DNA of 64,000 nt from Thalia democratica. Taxonomy: Eukaryota. Shown one piece after another: positions 12,001 to 30,000 of this stretch; the first letter of the stretch is position 1; each line of letters begins with the position of its first letter. A program made the position numbers. The stretch covers positions 57,846,001 to 57,910,000 of the forward strand of contig OZ241827.1 in the NCBI GenBank assembly GCA_965202585.1. The letters run 5' to 3'.

Positions 12001-15000
12001 ACTAGAATTAGTAAAGTTTATTTTCCTCGAGTAATATCATAAATCTTACTTCGAATAAAATATTTTTTGCATTTTTAATTGTTATTTAAAACTTTTTAAA
12101 TGTTTTTAAAAACAAGGTTAATTCAGAAAAATGCAAAAAAAAATGTAACCAATAAAAAAATTAGGTTTAAGAATAACTAAGGTACATTAAATATTATCTG
12201 GAACAAGTTATAATTTTCTTAATTTTTACAGCTAGTTTTGTTTTTTTAATACAAGAGCAAGTTTAAATGTTTGATTAATTAAAGTTTGAGCAAACACTTT
12301 TTTTGACAGACAGCTAGTTAAACAGGCTTGATTGTTTAGAGGTAAACCTAATTAGCCTTTATAACTACAACTTAATATATAACTTTTTATTTTGCAGCTC
12401 AGTGCTTTAAAAACTGTTTGTTATACTTTTTACTGTCTTCATTTAGCTTTTTGATCGGCCTTTTTTAAAGTCGTGTTATAAATTTTATAATCGATAAGCA
12501 ATTGTTATTTTTATATGAGAAAAAAATTATATTTTGTTAAGAGATTTGTTTTATACATGTAAGTCAAAAATTTAACTATCATAGTAATTTTTTACTATAT
12601 AAAGTTAAACTTAGACGAACTTGACAACTGTATGTTCTAAACAAAAAGTATATTTTTAATTTAGTTCTAAATAAAAAAGATTATTTATGTTGAAGTTATG
12701 GATAAATAACTTTCTAAAATAACCGTTTTAATATATTTTTTAATGATACTTAAACTAATTTAAAATAATAATTAAAAGTTCTTGAAAAAAAAATCTGAAT
12801 TGTATTAGTTTTTTTAAGAAAAACTAATTTTGTTCAAGAAAAACAAAAACATGGTACTTTAATTAAAACTTAAATATTTGAAAACTATATAAAAACATAT
12901 ACTTTTTTAGAAAAATAAAACGACTCTCTTGATTATATAATGATTAAAAAAGACTTCAGGAAGAAATAATACATTGAAAATACCAACTTTGAGTCTCTGC
13001 AGATTGGAAAAATAAATTAATAAAAAATGATCAGAAAAGTTCTGATTTGTAAAATCATAATCATCATCCTGGCCAATCAGTGTTGCAGCGGAAGCTTGGG
13101 TGCAAGTAGCAACACCGAGTCGTCTGTTGGCAAGTTTAGTGATGAGCTTAAACATTTAGATGTATTGGAGCCTGGGAAAGTTGCAGAAAGAGAAGTAAAA
13201 GAAAGTAGTGCGCAGACGGATCAAAATAAAAGGTCCATTCAGCTCGTTAAGCAGGCTGTCAAGGAAATAAGAGCCCAGTGAGTTTGGCAGTTGATTTTAT
13301 TTTAACTGTTTGTTTATTTAAACGTAAAAATTTACATCTTGTAAAATAAGACTTTTTCTTTTGTAAAAGTTACACGGATGAACTAAATAATGGTCAGCTA
13401 CTTTTTTTATGGTTTTATTCGATAGCATGTTGTTACAGTAACTTTTTAGCTGTTTGATGCCAAAAATCATTCAGAGCCGACACTTTTAACCTTACCTTAC
13501 CCTCATTTATTAATTAGTTAAAGAAAACAAAAGGGTCGTGCAAGTTTAAAAGATGGTTTACAAACTTAAAAACGATTTAAGTTTCAAATATTATCTACAG
13601 TTTTCTAAACAATACGGTTATATATATATATATTTTTATTCTGTTTTGTCATAATAACTAAAAGCGAAAAATATTAACTACACCTATTTCAATAGCCATT
13701 ATCAAACATATCGGATAAAATAACTTGTTCAAACTATTGTTAAAGCAATTGAAATTTACTTAATTTAATATGCAATAAAAACTTCATTGAGCTACTGTTT
13801 TCCAAAGGCAAACATCGTATAAATTACACTCTACTTAAACAACTTACCATAAAAGCAAAGTTGTGTGCTTTACGTATTAAGTTTACTGGATGACTGGGCA
13901 TATATTTAATTTACTTCTACTGCTTCATTTCATCGTTCGAGTTGAAACGCAACAAGCTTACTAATTAAATTCAAATATTTGTCGAAACTGTTCTAAGTAG
14001 TAATTTGGCTAATCGCGCTTAGGAGGTATGTCATAATTAACAAAACCCAAACTTTTTTTTTTAGAGCAGAGCTCAGCTGTGGCTTGCCAATAATAATATT
14101 TGAAATCTTAAACCACCGAAACCCAGCAAAACGTCCGATTAAAACCTTTTATTAAAGCGAAACATTTCAAGCATGTGTCTGAGCTCTGCTGAGGAATAGA
14201 ACAGCCGAGCTAGAATGTAATAAGCACCTTAAGTTAGTATATTTCCTGTTTTTTTTTCGCCGTACATTTGAGTTGTAAACTATTTCGTCATGTTTTAATG
14301 GGTTTTCATTTGTTACAAAGTGAAGGGCCATTTGGTCTGCGGCGTAAGTGCGGTGGCAAAAAAGGTATAATTTCATGTCATGAGCTGAAAGAAAATTGTT
14401 TTTGTGATGCTCCGAACAAAAGAAGCTGTCTAAACAGAGATTTGAAAAGATTTCCATCTGCTAAGAGTTTTCTATTGGTTTTGTTTGTCTAGTTCAATCA
14501 AGTTTAAATGTCTTTATTGAAATTATTTGTAGAGGTTATGTATTTTTTTTAAAAGTATGATGAAATTTGAAAACTTTCATATTTTTAACCAGTCATTTAG
14601 TAATAAAAAATAAACAATGGTAGCGTTGAAAAAGTATATTTAAAATATCTTTTACAACTAAAAAGTATTATCAATGTATAATTATGTATAATAAAGGAAC
14701 ACTTTAACAAATATCACACAATTTGTACATTAACCAGAAGTTTAGTGCTTTCTTTTTAGATAGTTAAAGTAAATAAGTACGGAAAAATAACTTTTATTTT
14801 TTACAAAAGTACAAAAATCAAGTAAAATTTTTGCACTGCAATTTCAAACTTGAAAACTCAATTCAGCTTCATTATGCTTGATTTTCTTTAGAAAACATGT
14901 AGTGTAGAAAAAACTGTTAGTGTAAATAAACCGGGAACGATATTGCAGAAGTTGCAAACGTTTACGGATTTTTTGCAAACAAAAAATAAAGTGTCCGATT

Positions 15001-27000: not shown

Positions 27001-30000
27001 CACATAGCTTTGTTGATTTTAGTTTAACTTCTATTTCTTTTTGTTCATTTTATCGATTGCTTTATTTCTTTTAGGTTAAAGAGTTTATATTAAATTTGTT
27101 TAATTGTTTAGCTCGTAAGAAATTGTTTTAGCATGTGGTGTATGACTCGATAACTGAAAGGATTTTTTTGTAAACCAGGTCCTTGACCAAACTTTTTGAG
27201 CGCTATTTTTTATCTTTAAATAAACAATATACATAATGACGCATCTTTAATACTTTATGAAATGAATTATTATTATCTCTTTAAAAATGGTTTAATTTAA
27301 AGTTTTATCAAAATACAAATTTATGCTAACTTTATTCTTTCATTTCGTTTCGAAATAAAATCACTATTTTAAAACAAGAACAATTGAAGCTATATATACA
27401 TAAAACAATACTCTTAAGTTTATAAAGTTCTGAAAAACTAATTCAGTATTTTACAACAAACTGAAGAAGATTTTACTTTTTTTCATCCTTTTTCAATAGC
27501 TTAAGCATACTTTTAAAATTTCAACTATACGGTTTGTTTCAGTTTTATTCACCTTGATCATAAAACACGACGTAATTCTTGTCTTTAACTATTCAGACGA
27601 GCGCCTATAATATTACATGATTGTTCACGTATTTTAATAAATAAATTGATAATTAGTGTCAGGTATCATCCGCTCATTTATTTCTGTCTTTTTATAGTCT
27701 GTTATTTTTAGCGCCTTTGTAATGTGTTATTCGGTTTAAGTCTTGATTTGATTGAATTAATCTATAAATTTTCTAACTTTTTCCCATGTTTAAGCCTCCT
27801 TTGTTTTTATTTTAGTTGACTGTTTTCAAGTATACCAAACAAAACTTTTCATCCGAATTTAGCTCCTAACTAAATTGCTATATAACTAATTTTTTTACTA
27901 ATTCAAGAATATTTAGCAGAATTTAAATAACATTTTTTAATTTCTATGTTTTTACAAACCAGTTTAAAAAATTACATCTTGTTGGATCATCTTTTTTAAC
28001 CAATAAAAACTTTAATACAGTTAAATGCTTACCTAATTTTAACAAAAATCATAACAATGCCACTTTATTAAAAACAAACTAATTTTAACATTCATTATAA
28101 CAGGTATTACGCAAACGAATGGAGCAAATGTTCAGTTGATTGCGGAAATGGAACAAAATTCAGGAAAATATCCTGTGTGGTTCTCATGTCAGACGGAACT
28201 GTTCGCCAGGTTGCCATGGAAAGTTGCCGTAGCAACCAGCAACTTCCGCCCCAAAAAGAAACCTGCTTCAGTAACTCGTGCCCGGATTGGAAGCCGAAGC
28301 CATGGAAACAGGTATAAAACTGTTTTTTATATTAGTAAACATGTACTGTGGTATATACAATATGAGGCTTTATTAGTTTATTTATTTCATGTAAAAGTTG
28401 ATAAAATGTTTAGTTTATTATAATCTAATAACAGTGTAGCAAGAAATGTTATGGTGTTGGAATTGGAGTTCAAACAAGACATATTCACTGTGTGGCTAAT
28501 AACAACAAGGAGTTTCATAAAACTCACTGTAAACATTTACCAAAACCAAATAGGTCGGTATGATACTATTGTTTTTTTTCTTTAAACATTGACTAATTCA
28601 AATTCCAATTATTATCTGCGCACCATTGTTAAATTAGAACCTTGAGTAAAAGCATGTTCACAATAAATAATTTATTAATTAACCAGAAAACAAAGCTGTT
28701 CAAACAGCCGATGTCAGCCAGTTTGGAGACCGAGTCACTGGTCCGTTTGCTCGGCAACTTGCGGCAGCCATGGCATTAAAACGAGAGTTCTTGGCTGCTA
28801 CTACAAGGGCAGGCCCAGCCAGGCGGCGGGTGCTCGTTGCTTAGCAACAACACGACCGGAAGTTGCAGTCCCTTGCAACAGAATACCCTGCGGTTAGAAA
28901 TAAAATGTTTATGTATTATTGAATAAAGAGATAAAATATTTTTTTTTACTTTTCTAAAATTAAATGCGTAGTTTCTTGACAGTTTAAAACTTACAGATTG
29001 CAATCAAAGTTCAAACATATGCAGATGAGAATGTTGGTATGAACTGATGCCTATGGAACACATGAAAGGAAATGGTGTAATGTTTATAACGTTGTTTGGA
29101 AGTTGGGTGTTTTAGGATATAGAAAGTCAAGTTTGTTTTTAGATTACTTGTAACTTGGACATGTCTCAGAAAGAAAGATTGTTTTTAGTGAAATTCGTTT
29201 TAAATGTACTTTATCTATGTGTTAAGTTTAATTTTAGTTAAGGTTTCAATTAAATTGTTGCTTATAAAAAATTTTGCTCTTTCAACTCAACACCTTCATA
29301 AAAAGTTTAGAGCTGCTTGAAAAAAAAACTTTTGTCATTTAAATACTTTATTTAATTTTTTCTATAACTTCTTATAACATTAATAGACTTTATAATGTTT
29401 TATTAAATTTTGAAACATATGTCTTCAAAAAATACTAAAACTGATTCTTTTTTATAAAAGGTTTAGAAAGTTTACTATAATCATATATTTTGAGTTTCTT
29501 CATTTATATTTATACTGCCTAATAAATTAAAAAAACAATTTGCTGTTTATTAAATAGTGTGCTTTTTTAGAAATATTTAAAACATGTTTAAGTACTTTTA
29601 TATTTATATAGTACAATTTAAACAAAAACAAAAATTAAACTTTTAAAATTAAGTAATTAAAAAATGATACGAATACTAATTAAATTCTAAAATTTACCTG
29701 CATAGATTTAAAAGTTTTACTTATTTGAAGATAATGAAATATGTCGTTTACAACATTAAAAAAGTTATTTCTTAGAAATATATTTTAAAACCTAACGTTT
29801 TTAGTTTGGACTACAACTTGTAAATGACTATCAAACGCCTGTCTAAACGGTCTTGCTTGTTTTAAAAAGATTTAGTTGTTGTTTTTAGAAATTGTTTGTC
29901 CTGTTTTTTACTATAAAAAATATAAATTGTGCTTTTATTTTAAATTGAAACAACTATAAAATGAAGTCGTACAACATATTTAGTAGTTTCATAAACCATA

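What the first reader, a model, noticed from the sequence alone, without database searches (positions are those of the whole stretch)
13027..29047. Stand-alone 'short punctin': its own signal-peptide exon spliced into an ancestral internal TSP1 acceptor, with no Cys-rich/spacer region and no PLAC
Seen: exon 1 (signal peptide plus ~60 aa ending near QNKR) joins in phase 2 to a W-initiated TSP1 exon, the same phase-2 junction type seen between exons 14 and 15 (CPPR|YY). No Cys-rich/spacer exons are visible in 1-13027. Stops just upstream of the ATG and a 24- versus 25-nt leader in the two arms rule out an N-terminal extension through this exon. Established: canonical ADAMTSL1/3 begin with TSP1-Cys-rich-spacer and end in PLAC, and C. 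elegans madd-4 makes a short TSP1/Ig isoform (MADD-4B) from an internal promoter. Inference: this is either an independently evolved, duplicated short-punctin-type gene or the short isoform of a longer locus lying outside the window.
Basis: partly seen in the sequence, partly recalled or inferred. Interest (0 to 1): 0.65.

Follow-up and report, generated by a model that had tools for sequence, protein, structure and literature searches.

The report
Duplicated short punctin-like matrix gene
The window holds two mirror-image copies of an animal gene for a secreted punctin-type (ADAMTS-like) matrix protein that starts at its own signal-peptide exon, lacks the usual front module and keeps only a stump of the usual tail module: a sound annotation of a known kind of gene, not a new kind.

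Summary
The sequence features are real. An inverted duplication (5601-29285 versus 63994-40903) carries two intact copies of an ADAMTSL1/3 (punctin/MADD-4) family gene. I rebuilt 17 GT-AG, phase-compatible exons (13027-28897, 1086 codons), preserved in both arms. Exon 1 is a real coding exon. Its ORF recurs in three database ORFs, one only 65% identical, with a near-invariant last 21 residues. All three frames entering it from the upstream CAG are closed. It fits the W-initiated TSP1 exon in phase 2.

No Cys-rich, spacer or extra TSP1 exon lies anywhere else in the window.

Unnamed relatives show the same repeat either internal to a long form (after TSP1, Cys-rich and spacer) or directly behind a hydrophobic segment. 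A start at this repeat is therefore recurrent, as in C. elegans MADD-4B, and not shown to be an independent invention.

The window cannot say whether long-form exons lie outside it. There is no transcript evidence. Exons were searched one by one and the joined model was never built. Verdict: new member of a known kind, modest interest.

The parts
5601..29285 (+). Arm A of the inverted duplication
   Evidence: blastn of the window halves: 5601-8253 = 63994-61351 (87.6%), 8837-29285 = 61360-40903 (93.9%)
40903..63994 (-). Arm B of the inverted duplication. It reaches the window end, so its true extent is unknown.
   Evidence: MAFFT alignment of the arms
12934..12940 (+). TATATAA motif about 90 nt before the ATG; possible core promoter (weak evidence in AT-rich DNA)
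   Evidence: read from the arm alignment; present in both arms
13000..13002 (+). Acceptor-like CAG, 24 nt (arm A) or 25 nt (arm B) before the ATG; possible 5'UTR or trans-splice acceptor
   Evidence: frames behind it are closed
13027..13277 (+). Exon 1: ATG, signal-peptide-like helix, disordered stretch, KR, conserved C-terminal helix; ends in phase 2; donor GTGAGT
19199..19418 (+). Exon 2: complete TSP1 starting at W, plus the W-motif of the next repeat
   Evidence: PF19030 E=1.6e-10; junctions; profile positions 11-76
19504..19692 (+). Exon 3: rest of TSP1 no. 2 plus the W-motif of no. 3
   Evidence: PF19030 E=6.8e-5
21009..21180 (+). Exon 4: rest of TSP1 no. 3
   Evidence: PF19030 E=1.8e-4
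21313..21505 (+). Exon 5: first half of a divergent Ig-like domain
   Evidence: no Pfam hit; weak colinear profile match, positions 216-246, iE 0.0022; junctions
21923..22104 (+). Exon 6: second half of the divergent Ig-like domain
   Evidence: profile positions 252-300, iE 5.9e-5
22908..23017 (+). Exon 7: linker; no homology support; 12-nt in-frame indel between the arms
23110..23260 (+). Exon 8: linker; no homology support
23445..23730 (+). Exon 9: linker plus first half of I-set Ig
   Evidence: PF07679 E=4.9e-6; profile 512-575
23872..24128 (+). Exon 10: end of that Ig plus start of the next
   Evidence: PF07679 E=5.8e-6; profile 580-661, iE 6e-33
25681..25863 (+). Exon 11: rest of the second I-set Ig
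   Evidence: PF07679 E=2.7e-9
26117..26245 (+). Exon 12: start of the third I-set Ig
   Evidence: profile 724-766
26316..26531 (+). Exon 13: rest of the third I-set Ig
   Evidence: PF07679 E=6.7e-10
26664..26847 (+). Exon 14: TSP1 ending CPP(R); phase 2 out
   Evidence: PF19030 E=2.7e-5
28104..28311 (+). Exon 15: TSP1 (YYANEW...) plus the W-motif of the next
   Evidence: PF19030 E=6.5e-12
28435..28553 (+). Exon 16: rest of that TSP1
   Evidence: profile 971-1009, iE 3e-13
28687..28897 (+). Exon 17: last TSP1; TAG stop at 28895-28897; AATAAA at 28899. Alternative donor G|GTTAGA after 28892.
   Evidence: PF19030 E=1.5e-11; profile 1011-1078
28997..29028 (+). Possible exon 18: PLAC relic, (D)C-x6-C-R-stop
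56948..57198 (-). Arm B exon 1 (7 substitutions against arm A, no indel)
41290..51024 (-). Arm B exons 2-17, at 51024-50805, 50719-50531, 49219-49048, 48915-48723, 48308-48127, 47296-47175, 47081-46931, 46746-46461, 46319-46063, 44507-44325, 44071-43943, 43872-43657, 43523-43340, 42091-41884, 41760-41642 and 41506-41290. All splice sites are kept and there are no stops. The stop is TAA at 41292-41290.
41164..41195 (-). Arm B copy of the PLAC relic mini-exon
40679..40838 (-). Frameshifted relic of a third copy of the last TSP1 exon, just beyond the end of arm B
   Evidence: 78% identity to 28729-28891; profile 1030-1080, iE 1.3e-11

Best explanation
Each arm of an inverted duplication carries an apparently functional gene of the ADAMTSL1/3 (punctin/MADD-4) family. 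The transcription unit visible in the window begins at its own first coding exon.

Predicted product (about 1086 residues, shown by sequence analysis):
- signal-peptide-like helix, then about 60 residues with a conserved KR and amphipathic helix;
- 3 ADAMTS-type TSP1 repeats;
- a divergent Ig;
- a linker;
- 3 I-set Ig domains;
- 4 TSP1 repeats.

It has no TSP1-Cys-rich-spacer core. Its PLAC module has decayed to a ten-codon stump.

Inferred function: it is secreted and acts as a non-catalytic matrix or synaptic scaffold through its TSP1 and Ig modules, like the short punctin (PunctinS/MADD-4B) of C. elegans.

On the open sub-question I put about 0.45 on a self-contained short gene and about 0.40 on exon 1 being the alternative first exon of a longer locus whose exons lie outside the window.
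For: Gene model:
- 16 GT-AG introns with matching phases. Both arms keep every splice site and have no stop. The only exonic indel is 12 nt.
- Exons differ between arms at 70 of 3261 sites, introns at 701 of 12544. pN 0.0147 against pS 0.041, computed on 16 of 17 exons (exon 7 left out because of its indel).

Family:
- PF19030 (TSP1_ADAMTS) in 6 and I-set Ig in 4 of 51 plus-strand ORFs.
- 11 exon peptides (2, 3, 9-17) match P0047, P0065 and P0117 in colinear order at 31-57% identity.
- On a profile built from four relatives, 9 consecutive junctions (E9 to E17) abut without gaps.
- P0117 aligns end to end with P0105, which carries the ADAMTSL1 domain PF24484.

Exon 1:
- Three database ORFs of 82-86 aa at 94, 92 and 65% identity. 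20 of the last 21 residues are identical in all five sequences, and the indels are whole codons.
- GC 42% against 15-24% in the flanks.
- Hydropathy maximum 3.27 at residues 6-14, with net charge +3 in residues 1-9.
- AF2 predicts helices 2-20 and 63-83.
- The frames from the upstream CAG are closed.

Absence of the core and of PLAC:
- 0 of 108 and 0 of 98 flank ORFs gave a TSP1, ADAMTS or PLAC match.
- All but one of 252 tblastn HSPs of four relatives fall in 19173-28909 (+) or 40647-51044 (-).
- No CC-x2-C in any frame of 28900-41300.

Precedent: short punctin from its own promoter and ATG in C. elegans (passages of PMC13142758 and of bioRxiv 10.1101/2024.02.14.580278).
Against: - No transcript evidence of any kind. 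The E1-E2 join rests on phase, consensus sites and precedent.
- A search for proteins of 147-2000 aa containing the exon 1 peptide found none.
- Between the arms exon 1 has 6 non-synonymous changes and 1 synonymous. Its lower divergence is only marginal (P = 0.036).
- Every exon 1 ORF ends at TGA right after ...IRAQ. That is equally what a small stand-alone ORF would show.
- Exons 7 and 8 have no homology support, and skipping both keeps the frame.
- The PLAC relic is not significant by profile (iE 14). It rests on a pattern defined after the fact (3 hits in 127,996 six-frame residues, two of them the relics themselves).
- The relatives are unnamed predicted proteins whose N-termini may be mispredicted. 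Their names could not be looked up.
- Function is inferred from family membership only.
Confidence: 0.7

Rival explanations
1. Exon 1 is the alternative first exon (internal promoter) of a longer punctin locus. Long-form exons (TSP1, Cys-rich, spacer, about six more TSP1) lie outside the window and splice directly to 19199, skipping exon 1, as in C. elegans madd-4L and madd-4B.
For: - Long and short forms come from one locus in C. elegans (passages of PMC13142758 and 10.1101/2024.02.14.580278).
- The long relative P0117 has the homologous repeat at residue 715, behind TSP1 27-70, Cys-rich 94-174 and spacer 188-290.
- The exon 2 acceptor is of the ordinary inter-repeat type, with the same phase and position as the exon 14/15 junction.
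- Intron 1 is already 5.9 kb.
- Arm B runs off the window, so the duplicated unit may be much larger.
Against: - Nothing coding was seen in the 13 kb upstream of exon 1 in arm A or the 6.8 kb upstream in arm B. The skipped intron would therefore exceed 19 kb, while the other 15 introns are 70-1552 nt.
- P0041 shows that a punctin-like protein with an N-terminal signal peptide and no Cys-rich or spacer region can exist as a whole predicted protein.
Confidence: 0.4
2. The 84-codon ORF at 13027-13281 is a separate small gene for a secreted peptide precursor (signal peptide, KR site, conserved 15-residue helix) and not part of the punctin gene. The punctin gene's true 5' exons lie outside the window.
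For: - All five ORF versions stop right after ...IRAQ.
- The best-conserved part follows a dibasic KR.
- No database protein longer than 146 aa joins this peptide to anything else.
- An AATAAG lies about 70 nt downstream.
Against: - The stop is part of a perfect donor, CA|GTGAGT.
- The phase (2) matches the exon 2 acceptor.
- It is the only conserved signal-peptide-like ORF found within 19 kb upstream of a gene that needs one.
- Relatives P0047 and P0065 have a hydrophobic segment directly before the same repeat.
- No family or look-alike was found for the peptide.
Confidence: 0.1
3. The second copy is not a real paralogue but an assembly artefact: two divergent haplotypes stitched in inverted orientation.
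For: - About 5.6% intron divergence is within the range of highly heterozygous invertebrates (recalled, not tested).
- P0152 and P0153 show further exon 1 variants in database contigs.
Against: - The arms are separated by 11.6 kb of unique sequence, and a third, older relic of the last exon lies at 40679-40838.
- Identity is mosaic, with identical tracts of 644 and 385 bp. This is what gene conversion between true inverted repeats produces.
Confidence: 0.15

Closest known systems
C. elegans MADD-4B / PunctinS (short punctin)
   Same: It has its own first exon and ATG from an alternative promoter. It lacks the Cys-rich and spacer modules. It is a secreted, non-catalytic TSP1 + Ig protein (passages of PMC13142758 and bioRxiv 10.1101/2024.02.14.580278).
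   Different: The papers describe one Ig domain and a complete C-terminal PLAC, and a long isoform from the same locus. Here there are 1+3 Ig domains and only a PLAC stump, and no long-form exons are visible. Whether the two start at homologous repeats was not tested, because no C. elegans sequence was at hand.
Vertebrate ADAMTSL1/ADAMTSL3 (punctin-1/-2)
   Same: Same order of modules from the internal TSP1 block onward: TSP1s, Ig, linker, Ig block, TSP1s. The order is colinear with P0117, which aligns over its whole length with the PF24484-bearing P0105. Adamtsl3 is described with TSR1-Cys-rich-spacer, TSRs, Ig-like domain, TSR10-12 and PLAC (passages of PMC13668732).
   Different: No TSP1-Cys-rich-spacer core, no PLAC and no PF24484 match. 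Mouse Adamtsl3 splice variants with a truncated PLAC are mentioned in PMC13668732 (passage), so a PLAC-poor form is not unheard of.
Unnamed database relatives P0047, P0065 (short type), P0041 (signal peptide, no core, with PLAC), P0117 (long type)
   Same: 31-57% identity per conserved exon and the same module order. P0047 and P0065 have a hydrophobic segment 4 residues before the exon-2-type repeat.
   Different: All four end in a six-cysteine PLAC pattern (Pfam scores it only in P0041). In P0047 and P0065 the hydrophobic segment is internal, behind 160-195 residues without domains. Their source and names are unknown.
Papilin / other ADAMTSL members
   Same: Non-catalytic ADAMTS-type TSP1 proteins (passage of PMC4448532).
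   Different: No Kunitz domain and no Cys-rich or spacer module were found in any ORF scanned.

Membership tests
ADAMTSL1/3 (punctin) family | ADAMTS-type thrombospondin type 1 repeats (PF19030) | tested here: met
   6 of 51 plus-strand ORFs in 13024-28923, E from 1.8e-4 to 6.5e-12
ADAMTSL1/3 (punctin) family | Ig block between two TSP1 blocks, colinear with family members | tested here: met
   I-set in 4 ORFs; exons 2, 3 and 9-17 colinear with P0047, P0065 and P0117; profile mapping without gaps at 9 junctions; P0117 aligns with PF24484-bearing P0105
ADAMTSL1/3 (punctin) family | N-terminal TSP1 - Cys-rich - spacer core | tested here: not met
   Absent from the window. It could still lie outside the window as long-isoform exons.
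ADAMTSL1/3 (punctin) family | C-terminal PLAC (six cysteines) | tested here: not met
   No Pfam PLAC in 98 ORFs of 28900-41300; no CC-x2-C in any frame there; only C-x6-C followed by a stop at 28999-29028 and 41193-41164
ADAMTSL1/3 (punctin) family | No protease or disintegrin domain | tested here: met
   No such Pfam match in any of the 276 ORF scans (two plus-strand ORFs were scanned twice, so 274 distinct ORFs)
ADAMTSL1/3 (punctin) family | Secretion signal | tested here: inconclusive
   Hydropathy, charge and a predicted helix fit a signal peptide. No signal-peptide predictor was at hand.
ADAMTSL1/3 (punctin) family | ADAMTSL1 domain PF24484 in the linker | tested here: not met
   No hit in the ORFs holding exons 7-9. 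It is also absent from P0047, P0065, P0117 and P0041, and present only in P0105.
Short punctin isoform type (MADD-4B/PunctinS) | Own first coding exon with its own ATG, not readable from upstream exons | tested here: met
Short punctin isoform type (MADD-4B/PunctinS) | Shares its downstream exons with a long isoform of the same locus | not testable with these tools
   The flanking scaffold and transcripts are unavailable. No long-form exon lies in the window.
Short punctin isoform type (MADD-4B/PunctinS) | Transcript actually joins the first exon to the TSP1 exon | not testable with these tools
   No transcript data. Phase and splice sites fit.
Papilin | Kunitz domains and a Cys-rich/spacer core | tested here: not met

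The most novel reading that the evidence does not exclude
A lineage of AT-rich animals has turned punctin into a self-contained, duplicated short gene. It has shed both hallmarks of the ADAMTS ancillary region (Cys-rich/spacer core and PLAC). It has gained a new conserved N-terminal module (KR site plus a 15-residue amphipathic helix) that may be a cleavable pro-region or a new binding or oligomerisation element. The two inverted copies would be kept alike by gene conversion.
Probability: 0.3. Interest if true: 0.5.

Novelty: new member of a known kind. Interest (0 to 1): 0.35.

Why it matters
Punctins organise synapses and matrix in worms and mice, and the worm's long and short forms do different jobs. 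This locus shows that a start at one particular internal repeat, behind its own signal exon, also occurs outside nematodes, here together with loss of PLAC. That offers a natural test of what the TSP1/Ig body does without the ADAMTS core and tail. It also gives annotators an exact exon model, a conserved first exon that gene finders may miss, and a clear case of an inverted duplicate pair with conversion tracts. It does not change what is known about the family.

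Tried and rejected
- Exon 1 peptide and Ig exon 10, searched for longer proteins: nothing. The organism's own spliced proteins are evidently not in that collection.
- PDB sequence searches with exons 2 and 15 gave only generic TSP1 hits (thrombospondin-1, circumsporozoite protein/TRAP, properdin) and no family assignment.
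- Rfam (gathering thresholds) and a tRNA scan of the whole window: 0 hits each. They gave no clue to the organism.
- Minus-strand and intronic ORFs: 19 scanned, with one weak unrelated hit.
- Self-blastn: no dispersed repeats other than the arms and the relic exon. The GC islands in intron 1 are therefore not repeated within the window.
- ESM Atlas with the exon 1 peptide: no usable hit.
The source, organism and names of P0029-P0154 stay unknown.
- I considered TGA read-through or another genetic code for the PLAC relic and rejected it. No other exon has an in-frame stop, and nothing PLAC-like follows in any frame.
- I rejected the acceptor 9 nt further in (exon start 28696).
- Genome contigs holds bacteria and archaea only and was not used. 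Metagenome contigs, viral contigs and paper supplements were closed.
- Not done: Pfam, signal-peptide, folding or phylogeny runs on the joined 1086-residue model.

Full report
**What the window is.** It is 64 kb at 26.8% G+C with no N. Exons stand out as G+C islands of 30-58% in introns of about 15-25%. I do not take it for human; it looks like an AT-rich invertebrate genome. The organism could not be identified: Rfam and the tRNA scan found nothing, and names of related proteins could not be looked up.

**Inverted duplication.**
- 5601-8253 matches 63994-61351 at 87.6%, and 8837-29285 matches 61360-40903 at 93.9%.
- The arms lie tail to tail around 11.6 kb of unique sequence.
- Arm B runs into the window end, so the duplicated unit may be longer.

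**Gene model, built exon by exon.** Every search, scan and comparison used single exons or stop-to-stop ORFs. Pfam, signal-peptide, folding and phylogeny runs on the joined model were left out.
- Reading the frames and splice sites gives 17 exons in arm A.

| Exon | Coordinates (arm A) |
|---|---|
| 1 | 13027-13277 |
| 2 | 19199-19418 |
| 3 | 19504-19692 |
| 4 | 21009-21180 |
| 5 | 21313-21505 |
| 6 | 21923-22104 |
| 7 | 22908-23017 |
| 8 | 23110-23260 |
| 9 | 23445-23730 |
| 10 | 23872-24128 |
| 11 | 25681-25863 |
| 12 | 26117-26245 |
| 13 | 26316-26531 |
| 14 | 26664-26847 |
| 15 | 28104-28311 |
| 16 | 28435-28553 |
| 17 | 28687-28897 (TAG) |

- This makes 3261 nt, or 1086 codons plus the stop.
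- All 16 introns are GT-AG and all phases fit.
- In arm B every splice site is kept, no exon has a stop, and the only exonic indel is 12 nt in exon 7.
- Exons differ between arms at 70 of 3261 sites and introns at 701 of 12544.
- pN is 0.0147 against pS 0.041. This was computed on 16 of 17 exons, with exon 7 left out for its indel. Both copies look functional.

**Family.**
- Of 51 plus-strand ORFs in 13024-28923, six hit TSP1_ADAMTS (PF19030) and four hit I-set Ig. Nothing hit in 13024-19157.
- A full scan of 1.84 billion representative proteins with exon 2 alone gave 790 hits at E <= 0.001, of which the best 150 were listed.
- I then ran blastp with the 17 separate exon peptides against the 151 proteins held so far: those 150 plus P0001, a translation of the window's own relic ORF. 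Five matched at least three Ig exons in colinear order: P0047, P0117, P0065, P0041 and P0105.
- In P0047, P0117 and P0065, exons 2, 3 and 9-17 match at 31-57% identity.
- A profile built from four of these relatives places exons 2, 3, 5, 6 and 9-17 in order. The nine junctions from exon 9 to exon 17 abut without gaps. This validates the splice model without joining anything and favours the exon 17 acceptor at 28686/28687.
- Exon 4 maps best to another repeat. Exons 7 and 8 have no support. Skipping both would keep the frame.
- P0117 (1864 aa) has TSP1 27-70, ADAMTS Cys-rich 94-174 and spacer 188-290. It aligns over its whole length with P0105, which carries the ADAMTSL1 domain PF24484 and a PLAC.
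- The gene is therefore a member of the ADAMTSL1/3 (punctin, MADD-4) family.
- Module order: three TSP1, a divergent Ig, a linker, three I-set Ig, four TSP1.

**The 5' end.**
- ATG at 13027 with TAA TAA in frame just before it, and donor CA|GTGAGT.
- Exon 2 begins A + TGG, so the split codon is CA|A and the first whole codon is the W of a complete TSP1.
- The exon 14/15 junction (CPP, AG|G = R, YY...) has the same phase and the same position, 8 residues before the first cysteine of the repeat.
- An acceptor-like CAG lies 24 nt (arm A) or 25 nt (arm B) before the ATG.
- From that CAG all three frames are closed before the donor in both arms. A transcript that contains exon 1 must therefore start translation at this ATG.
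- A TATATAA lies at 12934-12940. That is weak evidence in such AT-rich DNA.

**Is exon 1 a real coding exon?** ORF length alone does not show it: ORFs of 81-110 codons occur elsewhere in the window. The decisive result is.
- Three database ORFs of 84, 82 and 86 aa match at 94, 92 and 65% identity.
- In the five-way alignment the signal region and middle vary, with whole-codon indels.
- GKFSDELK.LDVLE and the last 21 residues are almost invariant; 20 of those 21 are identical in all five.
- The N-terminus has net charge +3 in residues 1-9, a hydropathy maximum of 3.27 at residues 6-14, and small residues before a likely cleavage site.
- AlphaFold2 on that alignment gives helices 2-20, 34-41 and 63-83 with disorder between (mean pLDDT 63.8).
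- Against: between the arms exon 1 has 6 non-synonymous and 1 synonymous change, and its lower divergence is only marginal (P = 0.036).
- Against: all versions stop at the TGA inside the donor. A stand-alone 84-codon gene would show the same.
- Against: no protein longer than 146 aa containing this peptide was found.

**Is the acceptor ancestral, and is the short start unique?**
- Five single-exon ORF hits from other genomes (P0029, P0030, P0058, P0072, P0140; 46-87% identical) all lose similarity right after ...GLG(K/Q) or its equivalent. In four of them similarity begins exactly at the W; P0058 begins inside the exon. Both exon 2 boundaries are therefore old.
- In P0117 the homologous repeat is internal, at residues 713-801.
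- In P0047 and P0065 a strongly hydrophobic segment ends four residues before the W. P0041 has a canonical N-terminal signal peptide and no Cys-rich or spacer region.
- C. elegans makes PunctinS/MADD-4B from its own promoter, first exon and ATG. Only the long form has the Cys-rich and spacer modules (passages of PMC13142758 and of bioRxiv 10.1101/2024.02.14.580278).
'Independently evolved' is not shown.

**Absence of the ADAMTS core.**
- None of 108 ORFs of at least 33 aa on either strand of 1-13030 matched TSP1, ADAMTS Cys-rich, spacer or PLAC. The same holds for 98 ORFs of 28900-41300. Only a few unrelated hits at E 0.0075-0.048 appeared, all under their curated cut-offs.
- tblastn of P0117, P0047, P0065 and P0041 (71, 60, 57 and 64 HSPs at E <= 1) fell entirely in 19173-28909 (+) and 40647-51044 (-). 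The one exception is a chance-level HSP at 13461-13339 (-), E = 0.25.
- Any long-form exon must therefore lie more than 19 kb upstream of exon 2 in arm A, while the other 15 introns measure 70-1552 nt.
- This leans towards a self-contained gene but does not settle it.

**The 3' end and PLAC.**
- Exon 17 runs into TAG (28895-28897), with AATAAA two bases later. Arm B reads GAG AAA TAA instead.
- A donor G|GT(T/G)AGA after 28892 and an acceptor 104 nt on would add (D/G)-C-N-Q-S-S-N-I-C-R-stop in both arms (28997-29028 and 41195-41164).
- The four relatives all end, right after the last TSP1, in C-x-(N/D)-x4-C-x8-C-x7-CC-x2-C, the PLAC pattern. Pfam scores it only in P0041 and P0105.
- The stump matches the first C-x6-C; five of eight residues equal P0041's.
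- The pattern C-x-[NDQ]-x-S-x2-C occurs three times in 127,996 six-frame residues, two of them these stumps.
- The profile places the stump at the right positions (1082-1088) but without significance (iE 14).
- No CC-x2-C exists in any frame between the genes.
- PLAC is thus functionally absent but was once present, and the loss predates the duplication.

**Function (inferred).** By family membership the product would be a secreted, non-catalytic matrix or synaptic scaffold acting through its TSP1 and Ig modules. This parallels PunctinS in the worm and ADAMTSL3 in mouse (passages of PMC13142758 and PMC13668732). Nothing here tests this.

**Other observations.**
- Identity between the arms is mosaic: identical tracts of 644, 385 and 248 bp lie amid about 5.6% divergence. 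This is the signature of gene conversion and an argument that the duplication is real.
- A frameshifted third copy of the last TSP1 exon lies at 40679-40838 (-), just past arm B.

**Verdict.** The gene is a new member of a known family in a known (short-form) configuration, with decay of PLAC and an inverted duplicate as extras. The interesting alternative, a self-contained and remodelled punctin with a new conserved N-terminal module, stays open and needs transcripts and flanking sequence.

Noticed in passing
window 40679-40838 (-): A third, older copy of the last TSP1 exon, 78% identical to 28729-28891. It has frameshifts at both ends, is followed by a GTGAGA, and lies just beyond the end of arm B. 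It may be the remnant of an earlier duplication of the gene's 3' end.
   Followed up: partly
window 23099-23742, 28180-28564, 21955-22202 (arm A) and their arm B partners: Perfectly identical tracts of 644, 385 and 248 bp, spanning exons and introns, between arms that otherwise differ at about 5.6% of intron sites. This looks like gene conversion between the inverted copies.
   Followed up: partly
window 8254-8836: About 580 bp present in arm A but not arm B (the blastn match breaks here), with a G+C island at 8700-8850. It may be an insertion or deletion or a mobile-element remnant.
   Followed up: no
window 14026-14475 and 17700-18300 (intron 1): G+C islands of 34-46% inside intron 1 with ORFs of 79-97 codons on both strands. 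They have no Pfam match and no repeat copies in the window. 18073-18258 is identical between the arms. Their nature is unknown.
   Followed up: partly
window 13222-13277 (end of exon 1): A dibasic KR followed by a 15-residue predicted amphipathic helix is the best-conserved part of exon 1, even in the 65%-identical relative. It may be a processing site or a binding element.
   Followed up: partly
window 22908-23017 and 23110-23260 (exons 7 and 8): Linker exons without homology support. Exon 7 differs between the arms by 7 substitutions and a 12-nt in-frame indel. Skipping both exons (261 nt) keeps the frame, so they could be cassette exons.
   Followed up: no
window 676-1050: A G+C island of 35-42% near the window start with short ORFs on both strands and no Pfam hit. 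It could be an exon of an unseen neighbour or a regulatory island.
   Followed up: no
window 1-13000 and 29286-40902: No recognisable gene, tRNA, Rfam RNA or internal repeat in 13 kb upstream of the gene or in the 11.6 kb between the two copies.
   Followed up: yes
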